NCBI GenBank assembly: GCA_021463465.1
Contig: JAJTYH010000003.1
Location: 3,043-67,042 of the forward strand
Length of the DNA stretch: 64,000 nt
Origin: a bacterium
GTDB lineage: Bacteria > Patescibacteriota > Dojkabacteria > SC72
Direction of reading: 5' to 3'
In this document: piece after piece, positions 1 to 35,217 of the stretch
Layout: the number at the start of each line of letters is the position of its first letter
Position numbering within the stretch: the first letter of the stretch is position 1
Notes under the pieces: generated by a model
Told to the model about the DNA's origin: nothing
What the model saw: only the letters and a program-made list of their open reading frames with translations
Database searches by the model: none
Made by a program: the position numbers and the translations under genes

Positions 1-2108
1 ACCTTATCGAGGAAATTCATAGTTTCCATAAATTTGGCTACAACTGTATTATATTGAAACCTCTCTAAGGCTGTTTTCGAGAATATATTTACCTTGTTTA
101 GAAAATGAGTTACTTCAGGAGATCCGTCTTCCTTAAACTTCTTCGAATTGTCAGCTACAAAGGAATAAACTCTCGATACAAAGCGCTTAACCCCATTAAG
201 TGCGCTTTCATTCCAAGCCATTGTAGAGTCAAAAGGCCCAATGAACATAAGGTATGCCCTAGCTACATCGGAACCTACTTTGGCTGTTACATCACCAGGA
301 ACAATTACATTTCCACGAGTTTTACTCATCCTTCGATTATCCGAACCCAAAATAACCCCGTGAGATACACGTTGATAGTACGGCTCAGGAGTAGTAACCG
401 CTTTCTGGTCATAAAGAAACTGATGAATAAACCTAGAGTAAAGCAGATGCAGGGTATTATGCTCATCACCACCAATATAAGTATCCACTGGCAACCAGTA
501 ACTCTGTTTGCTAAGGTCGGCAATAAACTCCTTGTTTAAAGGGTCTACATATCTAACAAAGTACCAGTCGCTCCCCGCCCAGTTAGGCATGGTATCCGTT
601 TCTCGCTTTGCAGGACCTTTACATACAGGACATATAGTATTCACCCATTCTTGCATATTCGCCAATGGACTCTCCCCTGTTTCAGTAGGTTCGTAACGCT
701 CTACCTCTGGCAATTTGATGGGCAAATCAGATTTCTTTACAGGAACCCAGCCGCACTTCTCACACTTAATCATAGGAATAGGTTCGCCCCAGTAATGTTG
801 ACGGCTAAAAATCCAATCTCTTAGGTGATACCTAACCGTTTTAGTGCCCCAACCCTGCTTTTCTATATAATCCATCATGAGTTTTGTAGCTTCATTAATC
901 TCTTTACCATCTAAGAAGCCCGAATTAATCATTACTCCAGACTCCTCCTGTACCTGTTTCTTATCAGTTATTTCTGATTGATCCCCGTCCTTGCCCACTA
1001 CAACCCTCAGAATTTCAAGTCCAAACTGCTTAGCGAACTCGAAATCACGAATATCATGACCCGGAACTCCGACTACAGCGCCTGTACCCACACTGCCCAA
1101 TACAAAATCCGTAATCCAAATAGGCATAGGCTTCTTAGTCAAGTGATTAATCGCGTATATACCAGTAAAGACACCTGTCTTTTCACCTTCAGAAACTTCT
1201 TTCTGACGTTCCAACTCAGATTTATCCAAAGTTGCTTTTACATACTTTTGTATTTCATCCAAATCCTGATTTGTCTTAATCTTTCCTTTAATTAGCTTTC
1301 CAACCAAAGGGTGTTCAGCAGCCAAAACAATAAAGGTGGCTCCGAAATTCGTGTCTGGGCGAGTTGTAGCCACTGTTACAGTCTCATCAGTACCTTGAAT
1401 AGGATAAGTGATATCAATCCACTCCTTCTTATCTATCCAGTTGATCTGAGCGGCCTTAACTTTTTCTATAAATGCAGTGTCTTTCAAACCATCAATCAAT
1501 CGATCAGCATAAGCTGTAATCTTTACAATCCACTGACTAATATTTCGCTTACTTGTTTTAGTACCACATCGTTCACAGTTACCATTTACAACCTCTTCAT
1601 CTGCTAACCCAATCTTACAAGAAGGACACCAGTTAATAGGTCGTTCTTCTTTGTAGGCTAAACCTTGTTCAAAGAGTTTAATGAAAATCAACTGAGTCCA
1701 TTTGTAGTAGTTCGGATCTGTTGTATTTACCTCTCGACTCCAGTCAAATGAAAAGCCTAAACTTTTCATCTCTTCCCTGAAGCTGTCCGTATTCTCTTTG
1801 GTTACATCCTGAGGTTTACGCTTCACCTTAATAGCATAGTTTTCTGTAGGTAAACCGAAAGCATCCCAACCCATTGGGAACAACACGTTATACCCTTGCA
1901 TACGCATAAATCGAGCGTAAACGTCACCACCTGTAAATGAAAAAGCGTGACCTACATGTAGCCCGCTACCACTTGGATATGGAAATTCAACAAGCACATA
2001 CTTCTTTTTCCGCCCCTTATCGTTATCGACCGCCTTATACAAATCACCTTCAAACCACTTATCTCGCCACTTCTCTTCTACTTTTTTGAAATCAAATATT
2101 TTTTTCAT
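1..2108 (-). CDS. leuS: Leucyl-tRNA synthetase (3' end runs off the window)
   Basis: Absent from the ORF track (no stop in window). Manual translation from ATG 2108: MKKIFDFKKVEEKW...VEFPYPSGSGLHVGH...PMGWDAFGLPTEN; DWIFSRQHYWGEPIP; KMSKS-equivalent RMSKT near 318-332. Confidence 0.97.
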   Translation of the reverse strand, partial: MKKIFDFKKVEEKWRDKWFEGDLYKAVDNDKGRKKKYVLVEFPYPSGSGLHVGHAFSFTGGDVYARFMRMQGYNVLFPMGWDAFGLPTENYAIKVKRKPQDVTKENTDSFREEMKSLGFSFDWSREVNTTDPNYYKWTQLIFIKLFEQGLAYKEERPINWCPSCKIGLADEEVVNGNCERCGTKTSKRNISQWIVKITAYADRLIDGLKDTAFIEKVKAAQINWIDKKEWIDITYPIQGTDETVTVATTRPDTNFGATFIVLAAEHPLVGKLIKGKIKTNQDLDEIQKYVKATLDKSELERQKEVSEGEKTGVFTGIYAINHLTKKPMPIWITDFVLGSVGTGAVVGVPGHDIRDFEFAKQFGLEILRVVVGKDGDQSEITDKKQVQEESGVMINSGFLDGKEINEATKLMMDYIEKQGWGTKTVRYHLRDWIFSRQHYWGEPIPMIKCEKCGWVPVKKSDLPIKLPEVERYEPTETGESPLANMQEWVNTICPVCKGPAKRETDTMPNWAGSDWYFVRYVDPLNKEFIADLSKQSYWLPVDTYIGGDEHNTLHLLYSRFIHQFLYDQKAVTTPEPYYQRVSHGVILGSDNRRMSKTRGNVIVPGDVTAKVGSDVARAYLMFIGPFDSTMAWNESALNGVKRFVSRVYSFVADNSKKFKEDGSPEVTHFLNKVNIFSKTALERFQYNTVVAKFMETMNFLDK

Positions 2109-2161
2109 AAAGACATTAATCAATTTAAACTGAAATTGGTTTTAATACAAAAGTTGATCCC

Positions 2162-2215
2162 CTAAGGGAGGAGGAGTTTTAATGTCTTAGTTGTGTAGAC
2201 AGAAGATTTTTGCAT
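2162..2215 (-). promoter_or_regulatory. Putative leuS leader peptide uORF MQKSSVYTTKTLKLLLP (attenuator)
   Basis: 17 codons ending TTA AAA CTC CTC CTC CCT TAG; TATAAT (2223-2228) 7 nt before its ATG; 10-bp inverted repeat 2179-2188 / 2110-2119 next to the leuS ATG. Confidence 0.7.
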
Positions 2216-2312
2216 TTACGGGATTATAGCTCAAAGAAAGGAGAAAATAAATAAAAGCGATATCCCTAATTCTTTGATTTCGTCGAGCAGTGAAGATAAA
2301 ACGATTTATCAT

Positions 2313-2389
2313 TGGTGGACCTGGTGGGATTTGAACCCACTACCCCTTCTATGCCATAGAAGTGCTCTAGCCAAGTGAGCTACAGGCCC
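2313..2389 (-). tRNA. tRNA-Ala(GGC), CCA encoded
   Basis: Cloverleaf GGGCCTG...CAGGTCCA-CCA, G3:U70, anticodon arm CTTCT-ATGGCAT-AGAAG. Confidence 0.95.
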
Positions 2390-2407
2390 TAAACTATGTT
2401 GTACTCA

Positions 2408-2480
2408 TGGACTCAGCCGGAGTCGAACCGGCGACCTTCGCAATGCGAATGCGACGTTCTACCAACTGAACTATGAGCCC
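2408..2480 (-). tRNA. tRNA-Ala(CGC), no encoded CCA
   Basis: Cloverleaf GGGCTCA...TGAGTCCA, G3:U70, anticodon arm TCGCA-TTCGCAT-TGCGA. Confidence 0.95.
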
Positions 2481-2509
2481 AACTTCCGCGATTATACCAC
2501 TGCTAAATA

Positions 2510-3934
2510 CTAATACCAACAATAACTAGCGTGTGAAGAAGTTGAGGAGGACTTGAAATACGGAGATGGGTTAACATCGTTCCAACTATCCCATCTACCC
2601 CTAATTAGCATCATGTGTACATGCGTACCTGTGGCATAACCAGTACGGCCCATCTTCCCAATAACCTGGCCACCTGACACTGTTGAGCCACTTCCTACAT
2701 ATATATCGTCCAGATGTCCGTAAATAGTTGAGTACCCATTACCGTGATCAATTGCAACTGTCCAAGCTAAACCAGTCCCTCCCCACGAACCTATGCCCCT
2801 TGGAGGGCAGTTACCACTTTGACATCCTGCAAACACAACCTTACCTGGAGCCGACGCAACAATTTTAGGATAACTACCATTAGTATCTCTAATATCCATA
2901 CCATTATGATACCCATTCCAACATTGGCTTACACCCCCCTGTCCACCCGAGACTGGCCAATTAAGGAATCTATTCGCTGAAGATACTTTAATAGAGCCCT
3001 TTGTAAATGTTACTGGAGGTCTAAACACTCCAGAGTAGATAACCTTAGGAGGTGATTTAATTACAGGTTTTTCTATTGGGGTAGCACCAGGGATAAGGAT
3101 AGTTTCGCCAGATTGAAGCTCATATGGATACTCTTTCAGATTCTTCTCTGCAATAAGCTGTGGGTTAATCTTGTACTTTTTTCCAAGCGTATAGACTGTA
3201 TCACCCTTTTTTGCTTTTACAACAACACCATTGTAAGGAGGAACATTTAATACGTCGCCTGGACGAATTACATCATCTTGAATAAATGGGTTTGCCCATA
3301 AAAGAGTATCAGTTGATATGTCATTGTTCTCAGCTATTTTAAATAGTGTATCACCAGGTTTAACTGTATAATTTAAGAACTCTGTCCTACCTCTTTCCTT
3401 AGGTGAAGGAGTTGTACTTGTCCCCCTTTGTACTAACCTATCTTCTCTGTTTAATGTCGTCGTACCTTGTGCAAATATACTCGTATATCTAACGCCAGAA
3501 ACTGGAGATGACGACTTATAAGCGTAGCCCATAAGAAAGACTAGGAATATAACGAGTACAATAAAATGTAATGAGAATTTGAAGATTCCTCCTCTACCCC
3601 AAAATAGATTTCTAACAAAAAACTTTCTAAAACCCTCTGTATACTGATTTATAAGCTCACCTAACACTCCAACCAATACCAACGCAACTCTCAATCGTAA
3701 TGCAGTGTATGAAAAAAAATCTAGAAAGAACAGTACAATGGCGCTTCCCTTGTATTTCTTCTTAGCATAAGCTACCTGCTGGTTAATTTTTAATCTCCAT
3801 CTAAGGAAGATTGATGTGTCAGAGTAATTAAATGAAAGAGACTCATCTTTAGCAATATCACTATCTTCAACAGAGTCCAGGAGTCGTTTGATACTACGTT
3901 TTGCGATATTTTGTATTGAAGGTTCACCCTTCAT
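2510..3934 (-). CDS. Membrane-anchored LysM + M23 metallopeptidase
   Basis: N-terminal TM segments, two LysM repeats (YTVKPGDTLFKIA; AKKGDTVYTLG), M23 motifs HNGMD, YGHL, HVH. Confidence 0.9.
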   Translation of the reverse strand: MKGEPSIQNIAKRSIKRLLDSVEDSDIAKDESLSFNYSDTSIFLRWRLKINQQVAYAKKKYKGSAIVLFFLDFFSYTALRLRVALVLVGVLGELINQYTEGFRKFFVRNLFWGRGGIFKFSLHFIVLVIFLVFLMGYAYKSSSPVSGVRYTSIFAQGTTTLNREDRLVQRGTSTTPSPKERGRTEFLNYTVKPGDTLFKIAENNDISTDTLLWANPFIQDDVIRPGDVLNVPPYNGVVVKAKKGDTVYTLGKKYKINPQLIAEKNLKEYPYELQSGETILIPGATPIEKPVIKSPPKVIYSGVFRPPVTFTKGSIKVSSANRFLNWPVSGGQGGVSQCWNGYHNGMDIRDTNGSYPKIVASAPGKVVFAGCQSGNCPPRGIGSWGGTGLAWTVAIDHGNGYSTIYGHLDDIYVGSGSTVSGGQVIGKMGRTGYATGTHVHMMLIRGRWDSWNDVNPSPYFKSSSTSSHASYCWY

Positions 3935-3954: not shown

Positions 3955-5211
3955 TTAAGCCTCGTGCAACTTGGCTAAGAATTCCACATTATTTTTGGTC
4001 TTCTTCATTCTGGAAACAAGCACTTCAGTTGGCTCTTCATTGTTATCTAAAACCTCAAGCATACGCCTAATTCTCCATGATTGGTTTAGTACTTCCTTAC
4101 CGAGCAAGAACTCTTCATTTCGAGTTCCGGAATTAATAACATCGATTGCGGGATAGATTCTACGGTTAGAAAGATTTCTGTCTAAATGCAATTCCATGTT
4201 ACCTGTACCTTTGAATTCTTCATAAACCAAGTCATCCATCTTGGAACCTGTATTCACAAGTGCAGTAGCCACAATGGTTAAACTACCGCCATTCTCAAAA
4301 TTTCGAGCAGCACCAAAGAATCTCTTTGGAGGATAAAGGGCCACTGGATCAAATCCACCTGATAGAGTCTTACCTGATGTAGGCATAGTAATGTTATAAG
4401 CACGAGCCAAACGCGTAACGCTATCCATAAGGATAACTACATCTTCACCCCACTCAACCATTCGCTTAGCTTTTTCAAGCGCCATTTCGGCAACCTTACA
4501 GTTATACTCTGGCATCTCGTCAAAGTTAGAGGCAAAGACTTCACCTTTAACACTTCGCTGCATGTCCGTGACCTCTTCGGGTCTCTCACCCACTAACACT
4601 ACAATCAATTTAGCCTCGGGATGATTCTTCGTAATACCAGCAGCGATATCTTTAAGTAACCACGTCTTACCTGATTTAGGAGGCGAAACAATCATAGATC
4701 GCTGACCAAAACCGATAGGACTAAGTAAATCGATTACTCTGGTAGAGATAATATCGCTTTCAGTCTCAAGTTTAATCTGTTTGTTTGGAAAGATTGGAGT
4801 TAACTTATGGAAGAAAGGTCTTGCAGCAGCTTCAGCAGCTGGCCTACCGTAAACGGTATCAACCCTGAGCAAACTCAAATACTTTTCTTTATCCTTTGGA
4901 AGCCTTGCAGGACCAGCAACTACATCTCCTGGTCTTAAGCTAAACTTTTTAATCTGTGAACCGGAAATATATACATCGTTTTCCCCTTGTAATGGACCAT
5001 CGGTTCTCAAAACACCATGTGAACCATCGTTCATCACTTCAAGAAGCCCCTCAACAAAGATAAAGCCTTCTTTTTCAGTAGAAAGCTTTAATATTTCAAT
5101 AATCAAATCTCTCTTGGGTAATTCCATGAAATCTTGCATGCCAATTTCTTTGGCTTTGGTGCGCAACTGAGCCAGCGTTTGCTGCTCCAAATCTTTTATT
5201 GATACGTCCAT
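3955..5211 (-). CDS. rho: Transcription termination factor Rho
   Basis: [51 protein letters not shown]. Confidence 0.98.
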
Positions 5212-27047: not shown

Positions 27048-27073
27048 TAATATAGAGATAAATGTTAAAAATA

Positions 27074-27147
27074 TGGTGACGACAGGAATCGAACCTGTGA
27101 CCTTGGGTTTATGAATCCCATGCTCTAACCTTCTGAGCTACGTCACC
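27074..27147 (-). tRNA. tRNA-Met(CAT), probably elongator
   Basis: Cloverleaf GGTGACG...CGTCACCA, CAT anticodon, paired 1:72. Confidence 0.88.
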
Positions 27148-27181
27148 AAGTGTCTGAAATTATATCATCAAAGGAAGCTTT

Positions 27182-31628: not shown

Positions 31629-31703
<75 letters not shown>

Positions 31704-35143: not shown

Positions 35144-35217
35144 TGGGGGAGGACGGAATCGAACCGTCGACATCGGCTTTATAAGAACCGCGCTCTAACC
35201 TTCTGAGCTACACCCCC
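35144..35217 (-). tRNA. tRNA-Ile(TAT)
   Basis: Cloverleaf, anticodon arm CGGTT-CTTATAA-AGCCG, discriminator A. Confidence 0.9.

What the first reader, a model, noticed from the sequence alone, without database searches (positions are those of the whole stretch)
2106..2228. Leu-rich leader peptide that can pair with the leuS start region: candidate translational attenuator
Seen: TATAAT, 7 nt, then a leaderless 17-codon uORF MQKSSVYTTKTLKLLLP with 4 Leu in the last 6 codons (TTA, CTC x3), ending 53 nt before leuS. uORF mRNA AAGACAUUAA (2188-2179, codons 10-13) is perfectly complementary to UUAAUGUCUU (2119-2110), 1 nt before the leuS AUG. No T-box or strong intrinsic terminator is visible. Known: cognate-codon leader peptides sense tRNA charging, and the Actinobacterial LEU element acts at translation initiation. 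Inference: a ribosome stalled on the Leu codons masks the 5' strand and frees the leuS start. I am not aware of this being described in CPR.
Basis: partly seen in the sequence, partly recalled or inferred. Interest (0 to 1): 0.8.

Follow-up and report, generated by a model that had tools for sequence, protein, structure and literature searches.

The report
Leucine leader-peptide switch before leuS

Summary
The uORF is real and conserved. Eight of the 11 closest leuS loci, 9 genomes in all, keep an in-frame ORF of 15-19 codons ending Leu-Leu-Pro-UAG, mostly 6-9 nt behind a TATAAT. The same core (CTCCCTTAGGGGA) precedes leuS in a distant order titled Saccharibacteria, with five different Leu codons at position -3. 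The same genome has His-, Ser- and Cys-rich uORFs before hisS, serS and cysS, and T-box leaders before seven other synthetase genes. Verdict: a leucine-sensing leader peptide is well supported. How it raises leuS expression is unresolved; I favour hairpin occlusion that relieves a transcription stop. It is a compact variant of a known kind (Streptomyces leuL2-leuS). The scan has earlier notes on the hisS attenuator in this genome and on leuS and serS leaders on other DNA.

The parts
2223..2228 (-). -10 hexamer TATAAT of the leader promoter (P1); 7 nt to the uORF ATG, so the uORF mRNA is predicted to be leaderless or nearly so
   Evidence: Sequence. A TATAAT or TATACT lies 4-11 nt before the uORF start in 14 of 16 leaders. 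Genome-wide, TATAAT/TATACT ends 5-9 nt before an ATG at 53 of 598 ORFs against 9 in a control register. The promoter scan does not call it because the -35 is poor. There are no TSS data.
2162..2215 (-). Leader ORF: 17 codons plus TAG. Leu at codons 12, 14, 15, 16; Pro at 17.
   Evidence: The frame is open in 9 of 9 orthologous leaders, against 1 of 9 and 2 of 9 for the other two frames. Leu makes up 67 of 248 codons in 16 leaders, against 9.6% in the proteome.
2168..2176 (-). Three CTC Leu codons, the predicted sensor codons. The last one is part of the hairpin's 5' arm.
   Evidence: CTC is a rare Leu codon here, 8.9% of Leu codons. Codons -3 and -2 are Leu in 16 of 16 leaders. Codon -3 is spelt CTC 11 times, CTT 2, CTG 1, CTA 1 and TTG 1.
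2158..2169 (-). Hairpin UCCC-UUAG-GGGA: 4 bp here, 5 bp in most relatives. The UAG stop (2164-2162) lies in the loop.
   Evidence: It is the only RNAalifold consensus helix. Four pairs are invariant in 17 of 17 sequences and the fifth is paired in 9 of 17, with no covariation. dG is -5.8 kcal/mol here and -7.6 for the 5-bp form.
2144..2152 (-). T-rich run (TTTTGTATT) starting 5 nt after the hairpin
   Evidence: T fills 62 of 108 positions after the hairpin in the 9 leaders of the window's family. It fills 42 of 84 in the 7 leaders from the distant order, where the loci read have about 50% G+C. The window's copy does not meet the terminator scan's rule.
2122..2129 (-). Conserved box TTTAAATT (CTTAAATT in most relatives), 13-17 nt before the leuS ATG. 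Function unknown.
   Evidence: Alignment A1; spacing read. In some relatives a TATAAT lies in or beside it, so it may belong to a second promoter.
2179..2188 (-).
   Evidence: Significant in this genome only.
2110..2119 (-).
3..2108 (-). leuS (leucine--tRNA ligase), 5' part; it runs off the window
   Evidence: NCBIfam TIGR00396, 805 bits against a cut-off of 548. The N-terminus aligns with relatives from ATG 2108.
2313..2481 (-). tRNA-Ala(GGC) (2313-2389) and tRNA-Ala(CGC) (2407-2481) upstream on the same strand, with a strong promoter-like site at 2519-2491. They are a possible second source of transcripts that enter the leader.
   Evidence: tRNA-Ala(GGC) lies within 1200 nt upstream on the same strand in 19 of 30 leuS loci.

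Best explanation
A conserved 17-codon leader ORF ending Leu-Leu-Leu-Pro-UAG lies 53 nt before leuS, its last codons form one arm of a small hairpin with the stop codon in the loop, and a ribosome waiting for charged tRNA-Leu on those codons would hold the hairpin open, which is predicted to raise leuS expression, most likely by letting transcription continue past the hairpin and its T-rich run.

Shown directly:
- The ORF, its frame conservation and its Leu enrichment.
- Synonymous spelling of the conserved Leu and Pro codons.
- Exclusive linkage to leuS.
- The invariant hairpin-forming core and the T-rich run behind it.
- Sibling uORFs before hisS, serS and cysS.

Inferred:
- The transcript starts at or next to the uORF AUG.
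- The uORF is translated.
- Ribosomes stall on the rare CUC codons when Leu-tRNA is short.
- The closed hairpin lowers expression and the open hairpin raises it.

The step from hairpin to output is the weakest. No antiterminator exists, so this is not a classical three-hairpin attenuator. It looks like a collapsed form of the classical Leu attenuators that relatives in the same order carry before leuS.
For: Conservation near the window:
- 8 of the 11 leuS loci with at least 72% LeuS identity carry the element.
- The 16-mer CTNCTCCCTTAGGGGA occurs once each in 9 of 120 genomes of the order, with 0 control hits. It always lies before leuS.
- An in-frame ATG lies 15-19 codons before the TAG in 9 of 9, and TATAAT lies 6-9 nt before it in 7 of 9.
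- Frame 0 is open in 9 of 9, against 1 of 9 and 2 of 9 for the other frames.

Leucine signal:
- Leu makes up 67 of 248 codons against 9.6% in the proteome (p = 4e-15). Without Met1 and the final Leu-Leu-Pro it is 35 of 184 (p = 7e-5).
- Codon -3 is Leu through 5 different codons, and Pro is CCT or CCG.

Distant occurrence:
- The core precedes leuS in a distant, much larger order, where LeuS is 40-56% identical and the loci read have about 50% G+C.

Structure:
- The hairpin is the only consensus structure.

Context in relatives and in this genome:
- Relatives in the same order (L013, L020) and a metagenome contig (L053) have leaderless Leu uORFs followed by alternative hairpins and a strong terminator before leuS.
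- The same genome has His-, Ser- and Cys-run uORFs behind -10 hexamers before hisS, serS and cysS. Each is kept in at least the sister genome.
- The serS hairpin also holds the stop codon in its loop and covaries.
- The genome uses no Shine-Dalgarno sequence and shows a leaderless signal.

Precedent:
- S. lividans leuL2 before leuS is leaderless and followed by a hairpin and a U stretch.
Against: - There are no expression data. Three RNA runs hold none of the leader.
- The hairpin is weak, at -5.8 kcal/mol here. It shows no covariation because it is invariant.
- The window's T-run fails the terminator scan.
- In this genome, hairpins of -9 to -5 kcal/mol with a T-run are no commoner at gene ends (15) than inside genes (14).
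- The parallel serS hairpins lack a T-run in relatives. That argues against plain intrinsic termination as the shared output.
- Timing problem (my inference): RNA polymerase at the end of the T-run leaves room for a ribosome only as far as the Leu codons. A single-hairpin intrinsic terminator therefore cannot easily tell a stalled ribosome from a closely following one.
- The P1 promoter has no good -35.
- Transcripts may also come from the tRNA-Ala promoter.
- Instances in the distant order were found with the motif itself, so the motif's invariance there is partly by construction.
Confidence: 0.55

Rival explanations
1. The leader acts on translation: uORF codons 10-13 pair with the 10 nt just before the leuS AUG and hide the start, and a ribosome stalled on the Leu codons covers the 5' strand and would free the start.
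For: - The helix is perfect and unlikely by chance in this sequence: 1 of 1000 shuffles; -10.1 kcal/mol, z = -3.49.
- With a ribosome footprint placed on the Leu codons, the mean unpaired probability of the start region rises from 0.32 to 0.45.
- The genome has no Shine-Dalgarno signal, so an open start region should matter.
- This mechanism is shown for mycobacterial leaderless poly-Cys short ORFs (10.1101/834739, abstract and section 11).
Against: - It is absent from all 8 orthologous leaders, including the same genus.
- It is not in the consensus fold.
- The minimum-energy fold of the leader does not use it; only the centroid keeps 8 of its pairs. The leader folds no better than shuffles.
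- It does not explain the invariant hairpin or the T-run.
- It was found by eye in a 64-kb window.
Confidence: 0.12
2. Same leucine sensor, but the output is Rho-dependent termination, like the tna operon (recalled). After normal termination at UAG the bare, C-rich leader would let Rho load and stop RNA polymerase before leuS is translated. A ribosome stalled on the Leu codons would block Rho. The hairpin and T-run would act as a pause site.
For: - rho is present, 587 bits, and lies in the window at 3955-5211 on the minus strand.
- There is no antiterminator, and the hairpin is weak.
- The serS counterpart has a hairpin but no T-run.
- C exceeds G in 9 of 9 leaders, with skew 0.07-0.45 overall and 0.33-0.68 within the uORFs.
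- It solves the timing problem of a single hairpin (inference).
- Rho was proposed for actinobacterial leader ORFs that lack terminators (PMC1262725, passage).
Against: - The skew is only about 1 sd above background. 5% of the regions upstream of ORFs reach the window's value.
- Total C content is low.
- Leaders of 107-120 nt leave little room for Rho.
- There is no direct evidence of any kind.
Confidence: 0.2
3. No sensing at all. The hairpin and T-run simply end a short transcript or the tRNA-Ala operon, and the uORF is incidental or encodes a small protein.
For: - tRNA-Ala(GGC) lies upstream of leuS in 19 of 30 loci. In two genomes the uORF starts 8-14 nt after it.
- In G258 the same 13-mer ends a long upstream ORF of at least 210 codons rather than a short one.
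Against: - The frame is conserved while the N-terminal peptide sequence is not.
- Leu is enriched beyond the motif.
- Synonymous Leu and Pro codons are used.
- The motif occurs once per genome and only before leuS.
- His, Ser and Cys runs precede the matching synthetase genes.
Confidence: 0.05
4. The invariant core is a binding site for a protein, for example LeuRS itself recognising a hairpin shaped like the long variable arm of tRNA-Leu, or a DNA-binding repressor on the near-palindrome CCCTTAGGG.
For: - 12 columns are invariant in 17 sequences from two orders, without covariation.
- The tRNA-Leu variable arms of this genome are stems of 4-5 bp with small loops. One of them, tRNA-Leu(UAA), has the 3' arm GGGAG.
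Against: - It explains neither the ORF, nor the Leu enrichment, nor the sibling uORFs.
- The invariance in the distant order is partly due to the search pattern.
- That bacterial LeuRS reads the variable arm is not established (recalled).
Confidence: 0.05

Closest known systems
Streptomyces leuS leader (leuL2): candidate classical attenuators before leuS in S. avermitilis and S. coelicolor (Seliverstov et al. 2005, PMC1262725, abstract and passages), and leaderless leuL2 before leuS in S. lividans (Droste et al. 2021, PMC8079986, passages)
   Same: A short leaderless ORF with a run of Leu codons lies directly before leuS and is followed by a hairpin and a U stretch. It is presumed to sense charged tRNA-Leu.
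   Different: The phylum differs (CPR). No antiterminator was found here. The stop codon sits inside the hairpin loop, and the sensor codons are themselves the 5' arm. The hairpin is much weaker. A 13-nt core is invariant across two orders.
E. coli pheM-pheST attenuator and the classical trpL/leuL/hisL leaders (recalled, not read here)
   Same: A leader peptide with cognate codons controls a downstream gene, for pheST a synthetase, through ribosome position.
   Different: Those leaders use a Shine-Dalgarno-led ORF, a pause hairpin, an antiterminator and a strong terminator. Here only one small hairpin is present.
Actinobacterial ilvB leader ORFs that overlap the terminator hairpin (PMC1262725, passage)
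   Same: Regulatory codons overlap a hairpin followed by poly-U, with no antiterminator. The mode of action was stated as unclear.
   Different: That case controls a biosynthetic operon, not a synthetase. The authors cite codon substitutions in S. coelicolor ilvB as having no effect, which warns against assuming function.
Mycobacterial leaderless poly-Cys short ORFs ('Cys ribulon', Canestrari et al., bioRxiv 10.1101/834739, abstract and section 11)
   Same: Leaderless sensory short ORFs. Several loci share one design.
   Different: There the duplex is the tested, required element. Here the duplex exists in one genome only, and the conserved structure does not touch the leuS start.
Actinobacterial LEU element before leuA (PMC1262725, passages)
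   Same: A Leu-codon run pairs with a purine-rich partner.
   Different: [quoted passage not shown] Here the partner (GGGGA) lies 50 nt or more before the start, and the genome uses no Shine-Dalgarno sequence.

Membership tests
Classical leader-peptide transcription attenuator (trpL, leuL, pheM, Streptomyces leuL2 type) | Short leader ORF with a run of codons for the cognate amino acid | tested here: met
   4 Leu in the last 6 codons. Leu is 67 of 248 codons in 16 leaders, against 9.6% in the proteome.
Classical leader-peptide transcription attenuator (trpL, leuL, pheM, Streptomyces leuL2 type) | The ORF is conserved as a frame in orthologous leaders | tested here: met
   Frame 0 is open in 9 of 9, the other frames in 1 of 9 and 2 of 9. 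The leaders are 13-19 codons long and all 16 end Leu-Leu-Pro-stop.
Classical leader-peptide transcription attenuator (trpL, leuL, pheM, Streptomyces leuL2 type) | Intrinsic terminator (G+C-rich hairpin plus U tract) between the leader ORF and the gene | tested here: inconclusive
   The hairpin has 4-5 bp and -5.8 to -7.6 kcal/mol. A T-rich run starts 2-5 nt after it. The scan does not call it. Such weak hairpins are not enriched at gene ends in this genome.
Classical leader-peptide transcription attenuator (trpL, leuL, pheM, Streptomyces leuL2 type) | Alternative antiterminator hairpin that competes with the terminator | tested here: not met
   RNAalifold on 9 leaders gives only the one hairpin. 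No conserved partner for either arm was seen. Relatives L013, L020 and L053 do have such alternatives.
Classical leader-peptide transcription attenuator (trpL, leuL, pheM, Streptomyces leuL2 type) | Expression responds to charging of the cognate tRNA | not testable with these tools
   The organism is uncultured. The RNA runs held no part of the leader.
   A -10 hexamer lies 4-11 nt before the start in 14 of 16 leaders, and the genome shows a leaderless signal. There are no 5'-end data.
   It is present in the window (10 bp; 1 of 1000 shuffles) but absent in 8 of 8 orthologues. It is therefore not a property of the family of leaders.
T-box leader (Rfam RF00230) | Match to the T-box covariance model upstream of the synthetase gene | tested here: not met
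   There is no match before leuS at E up to 10 or 0.01. In contrast, 7 of 18 synthetase leaders of the genome match at E of 0.0066 or less, all below the gathering score.
Actinobacterial LEU element | [quoted passage not shown] | tested here: not met
   The Leu codons pair with GGGGA directly after the stop codon, 50 nt before the start. No Shine-Dalgarno signal exists in this genome: 39 of 598 against 40 of 598 in the control.
Rho-dependent leader-peptide control (tna type, recalled) | Rho is present, and a C-rich, G-poor loading site lies at or after the leader ORF's end | tested here: inconclusive
   rho is present. C exceeds G in 9 of 9 leaders, but only by about 1 sd above background.

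The most novel reading that the evidence does not exclude
The Leu-Leu-Pro-UAG/GGGGA leader is a distinct class of ribosome-operated switch without an antiterminator, in which the sensor codons and the stop codon are built into a single hairpin. It is shared, with an invariant core, by two deeply separated CPR orders and is paralleled by a covarying stop-codon hairpin before serS. It works by something other than classical attenuation, for example control of Rho or of polymerase pausing. Together with the His, Ser and Cys leaders it forms a synthetase 'ribulon' that complements T-boxes in these minimal genomes.
Probability: 0.3. Interest if true: 0.7.

Novelty: new variant of a known kind. Interest (0 to 1): 0.5.

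Why it matters
CPR bacteria have tiny genomes and few known regulators. This genome appears to control at least four synthetase genes with leader peptides and seven with reduced T-boxes, so it senses tRNA charging in two ways.

The leuS leader is a natural minimal design: one weak hairpin, no antiterminator, no Shine-Dalgarno sequence and a leaderless start. Textbook attenuation kinetics do not readily explain it. That makes it a compact test case for how ribosome position is read out in organisms with leaderless, Shine-Dalgarno-free translation.

For annotation, it also gives a simple signature for finding such leaders: a -10 hexamer, an ATG, 13-19 codons and CTCCCTTAGGGGA.

Tried and rejected
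Expression data:
- One search for sequencing runs and one laying of three RNA runs and one DNA run. The RNA contigs cover other parts of the stretch but not the leader, so they give no information on start, end or level.

Metagenome scan with the LeuS N-terminus:
- One search gave no answer and was repeated.
- 80 loci came back. Only L040 has the motif, and it matches the WS6 contig already held. No new members were gained.

Rfam:
- Nothing but tRNAs at leuS.

Covariation for the leuS hairpin:
- None is possible, since 4 of 5 pairs never vary.

Possible third segment:
- The conserved box CTTAAATT could pair with UAGGGG in a few genomes (6 bp in L002) but hardly at all in the window. I read this by eye and dropped it.

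Ideas checked by eye and dropped for lack of conservation:
- A -1 frameshift on C-CCU.
- A second small ORF starting at ATT after GGGGAG.
- The GGGGAG arm as a Shine-Dalgarno or standby site. The genome shows no Shine-Dalgarno use.
- The mini-ORF ATG TCT TTA TGA that overlaps the leuS ATG, which occurs in the window only.

Other checks:
- tRNA-Leu variable-arm mimicry: shapes are similar but sequences are not identical. It is kept only as a low-odds rival.
- Terminator census: weak hairpins with a T-run are not enriched at gene ends.

I stopped that step. I took the counts by hand from the table and ran only the sequence-free parts.

Not done:
- No covariance-model search for diverged hairpin variants.
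- No supplementary files read.
- No structure or complex prediction, as neither is relevant here.
Full report
**1. The observation.**
On the minus strand the sequence reads as the finding says.
- TATAAT lies at 2228-2223 and is followed by 7 nt.
- ATG at 2215 opens a 17-codon frame with Leu at codons 12 and 14-16. It ends at TAG 2164-2162.
- A 53-nt spacer leads to the leuS ATG at 2108. The gene is leuS by NCBIfam (805 bits).
- The 10-nt stretch 2188-2179 is the exact complement of 2119-2110.

A complement that long between the uORF and the start region appears in 1 of 1000 dinucleotide shuffles. Its duplex energy is -10.1 kcal/mol, z = -3.49. The leader as a whole folds no better than shuffles (z = -0.74). 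Rfam finds no T-box or other family there.

Two tRNA-Ala genes and a strong promoter-like site lie just upstream on the same strand.

**2. Conservation near the window.**
The genome has 790 kb in 3 contigs. Records of its family are titled candidate division WS6 or Candidatus Dojkabacteria. Three relatives are titled 'uncultured Candidatus Saccharibacteria'.

I searched 61 relatives with the LeuS N-terminus and read 30 loci.
- Eight of the 11 loci with at least 72% identity carry the element. They have an in-frame ORF ending Leu-Leu-Pro-TAG inside the string CTCCTCCCTTAGGGGA, followed by a T-rich run. A second box, CTTAAATT, lies 13-17 nt before the leuS ATG.
- The three exceptions differ. In two, tRNA-Ala ends 18-20 nt before leuS. 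In one, a TATAAT lies 7 nt before the leuS ATG.

The pattern CTNCTCCCTTAGGGGA occurs once each in 9 of 120 genomes of the order, with no control hit. It always lies before leuS.
- All 9 have an ATG 15-19 codons before the TAG.
- 7 of 9 have TATAAT 6-9 nt before that ATG. In the other two the ORF starts 8-14 nt after tRNA-Ala(GGC).
- The frame is open in 9 of 9. The other two frames are open in 1 and 2 of 9.
- The N-terminal peptide sequences are not alike.

**3. Conservation far away.**
An exact scan of one genome per species for CTCCTCCCTTAGGGGA gave 75 loci.
- Ten are followed by leuS within 400 nt.
- Seven of these belong to the clade above.
- Three belong to records titled Saccharibacteria or Saccharimonadales, with LeuS 42-55% identical and about 50% G+C in the loci read.

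In 401 sampled genomes of that second order, the 13-mer core hit 6 genomes, against 2 control hits. Four of the 5 new hits lie before leuS.

Among the 30 closest LeuS loci of one of these genomes, 3 carry the element. One of them spells Pro as CCG, which changes a loop base.

Over 16 typical leaders:
- Length is 13-19 codons.
- A -10 hexamer lies 4-11 nt before the start in 14.
- Codons -3 and -2 are always Leu. Codon -3 is CTC 11 times, CTT 2, CTG 1, CTA 1 and TTG 1.

Leu makes up 67 of 248 codons against 9.6% in this genome's proteome. Without the first Met and the last three codons it is 35 of 184 (p = 7e-5). CTC is a rare Leu codon here, at 8.9%.

One further genome (G258) has the 13-mer at the end of a long upstream ORF instead.

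The members from the second order were found through the motif. Its invariance there is therefore partly by construction, and most genomes of that order lack it.

**4.
In the 8 orthologous leaders the longest complement between the uORF and the leuS start is 4-7 nt. That length is reached by 202 to 1000 of 1000 shuffles. Their duplex z-scores run from -1.29 to +1.10. RNAalifold on the 9 leaders returns only the small hairpin.

The helix is thus a private feature of this genome. It may still matter here. The genome shows no Shine-Dalgarno signal, with 39 of 598 ORFs against 40 in the control, so an open start region should count. A ribosome footprint placed on the Leu codons raises the unpaired probability of the start region from 0.32 to 0.45.

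**5. The conserved structure.**
The last Leu codon and the first two bases of the Pro codon pair with GGGA(G) directly after the stop codon. UUAG, which includes the stop, forms the loop (window 2169-2158).
- Four pairs are invariant in 17 of 17 sequences and the fifth is paired in 9 of 17. There is no covariation.
- The energy is -5.8 kcal/mol here and -7.6 in the 5-bp form.
- The 12 nt that follow hold T at 62 of 108 positions in the window's family. In the second order it is 42 of 84.

This looks like a weak terminator or a pause signal. Several observations speak against a plain terminator.
- The scan does not call it.
- In this genome such weak hairpins with a T-run are as common inside genes (14) as at gene ends (15). 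Strong ones are rare, 7 against 1.
- By my own reckoning of footprints (inference), a polymerase at the end of the T-run leaves room for a ribosome only up to the Leu codons. A single hairpin then cannot easily tell a stalled ribosome from a closely coupled one.
- rho is present. The leaders have more C than G in 9 of 9 cases, though only by about one standard deviation.

**6. Siblings in the same genome.**
I scanned for short ORFs behind a -10 hexamer that carry runs of one amino acid. I then looked at the leaders of 18 synthetase genes. The results:
- hisS: a 15-codon uORF with His at codons 10-12 and 15, ending 73 nt before the gene.
- serS: a 16-codon uORF with Ser at codons 9 and 11-13, ending 59 nt before the gene.
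- cysS: a 16-codon uORF with Cys at codons 6 and 10-12, ending 104 nt before the gene.

The three genes are confirmed by NCBIfam equivalog models above cut-off. His is 1.5% and Cys 0.7% of the proteome.

- The hisS leader has a strong terminator and a plausible antiterminator. It is kept in 3 of 20 loci.
- The cysS uORF is kept in 2 of 24 loci.
- A Ser-run uORF occurs in 10 of 30 serS loci.
- The serS hairpin also holds the stop codon in its loop. It has 6-7 bp and covaries among relatives, with a G-U pair in one. It mostly lacks a T-run.
- Seven other synthetase leaders match the T-box model at E of 0.0066 or less, all below the gathering score.

**7. Relatives with the full device.**
Two genomes of another family in the order (L013, L020) and one metagenome contig (L053) have, before leuS, a leaderless Leu-run uORF. 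It is followed by GGGAGG-type and CCUCCC-type segments that can pair in alternative ways, and by a 6-bp terminator with a T6 run (-11.1 kcal/mol).

In these leaders the stop codon also lies between the Leu codons and their first partner. The window's hairpin therefore reads as a collapsed version of such an attenuator. This is inference.

**8. What is known.**
- Candidate classical attenuators before leuS of Streptomyces, and ilvB leader ORFs that overlap terminator hairpins with unclear action, are in Seliverstov et al. 2005 (PMC1262725; abstract and passages).
- In S. lividans the leuS leader leuL2 is reported as leaderless and followed by a hairpin and a U stretch (PMC8079986; passages).
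- pheM-pheST, tna, pyrBI and ermC are recalled, not read here.
- No paper on such leaders in CPR turned up in three searches. 'leader peptide' with 'Patescibacteria' gave 2 unrelated listings. 'candidate phyla radiation' with 'T-box' and 'aminoacyl-tRNA synthetase' gave 0. 'leuS', 'leader peptide' and 'attenuation' gave 9 listings, none on CPR by title. Supplements were not read.
- Earlier notes of this scan describe the hisS attenuator and five T-boxes of this same genome. They also describe a serS leader in another Dojkabacteria genome, and leuS leaders in Actinobacteria and archaea. I reached the hisS, serS and T-box results on my own calls.

**9. Verdict.**
A leucine-sensing leader peptide tied to leuS is well supported; I put it at about 0.8.

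Its read-out is open. My odds are:
- Occlusion of the hairpin relieving a stop or pause of transcription: 0.55, with the intrinsic-or-assisted question included.
- A Rho-dependent version: 0.2.
- No sensing: 0.05.
- A protein-binding site: 0.05.

It fails the antiterminator test, so it is not a member of the classical attenuator family, but it most likely works like one. I class it as a compact variant of a known kind.

Noticed in passing
G000 contig C2: uORF at 153959-154006 (+), hisS at 154080-155354 (outside the window): A 15-codon uORF with His at codons 10-12 and 15 lies 9 nt behind a TATAAT. It is followed by a 6-bp GAAA-loop terminator with a T6 run. A TATACT then lies 6 nt before the hisS ATG, so hisS itself looks leaderless from a second promoter. 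The arrangement is kept in 3 of 20 relatives' loci.
   Followed up: partly
G000 contig C3: uORF at 260646-260696 (+), serS at 260756-262024 (outside the window): A 16-codon uORF with Ser at codons 9 and 11-13 has its last codons forming a 7-bp hairpin (-12.3 kcal/mol) with the stop codon in the loop. The hairpin covaries among relatives and mostly lacks a T-run. In one relative (G008) the hairpin is kept but the stop codon lies 18 nt further on.
   Followed up: partly
G000 contig C2, minus strand: uORF 155-104 nt upstream of the cysS start at 268914 (outside the window): A 16-codon uORF with Cys at codons 6 and 10-12 lies behind a TATACT. A second TATACT lies 8 nt before the cysS ATG. A Cys-run uORF is also present in the sister genome, so in 2 of 24 loci.
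   Followed up: partly
G000, 18 synthetase leaders (loci L266-L283): Seven leaders match the Rfam T-box model at 26.8-72.9 bits, all below the gathering score of 93. By my provisional naming they precede two Tyr/Trp genes and the Asp, Lys/Asn, Pro, Arg and one Ile/Val gene. The genome thus mixes reduced T-boxes and leader peptides.
   Followed up: partly
G000, whole genome: There is no Shine-Dalgarno signal: GGAG, GAGG or AGGA lies at -18 to -5 in 39 of 598 ORFs, against 40 in a control register. There is a clear leaderless signal: TATAAT or TATACT ends 5-9 nt before the ATG in 53 ORFs, against 9. Strong intrinsic terminators are rare, at 7 of 629 gene ends.
   Followed up: partly
window 3955-5211 (-) and 2510-3934 (-): The transcription termination factor gene rho (587 bits) lies two genes upstream of leuS. 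Between them is a 474-aa protein with weak matches, all below cut-off, to M23-type cell-wall hydrolase or amidase-activator models.
   Followed up: no
window 35144-35217 (-): ARAGORN calls a tRNA-Ile with anticodon TAT, beside two tRNA-Met(CAT) genes at 27073-27148 and 31629-31703. A UAU tRNA-Ile is unusual in bacteria (recalled).
   Followed up: no
window 2106-2117 (-): A four-codon frame, ATG TCT TTA TGA, has its TGA overlapping the leuS ATG in an ATGA arrangement. It is not present in relatives.
   Followed up: partly
L201 (G258), locus positions about 1483-1539: In one genome of the Saccharibacteria-titled order, the 13-mer core with its stop codon ends an upstream ORF of at least 210 codons rather than a short uORF. 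It lies 57 nt before leuS.
   Followed up: no
L015, L016, L018, L021, L024, L030 and L022, L023, L026-L029 (leuS upstream regions of more distant family members): Two other conserved types of leuS leader occur. One has an ATGTAAAACG box, a start codon directly followed by a stop. The other has a repeated GTTCCACA motif before a TAGAAT-type -10. Neither was analysed.
   Followed up: no
leuS loci L001-L030: tRNA-Ala(GGC), often with tRNA-Ala(CGC), lies upstream of leuS on the same strand within 1200 nt in 19 of 30 loci. In two loci it ends only 18-20 nt before the leuS ATG.
   Followed up: no
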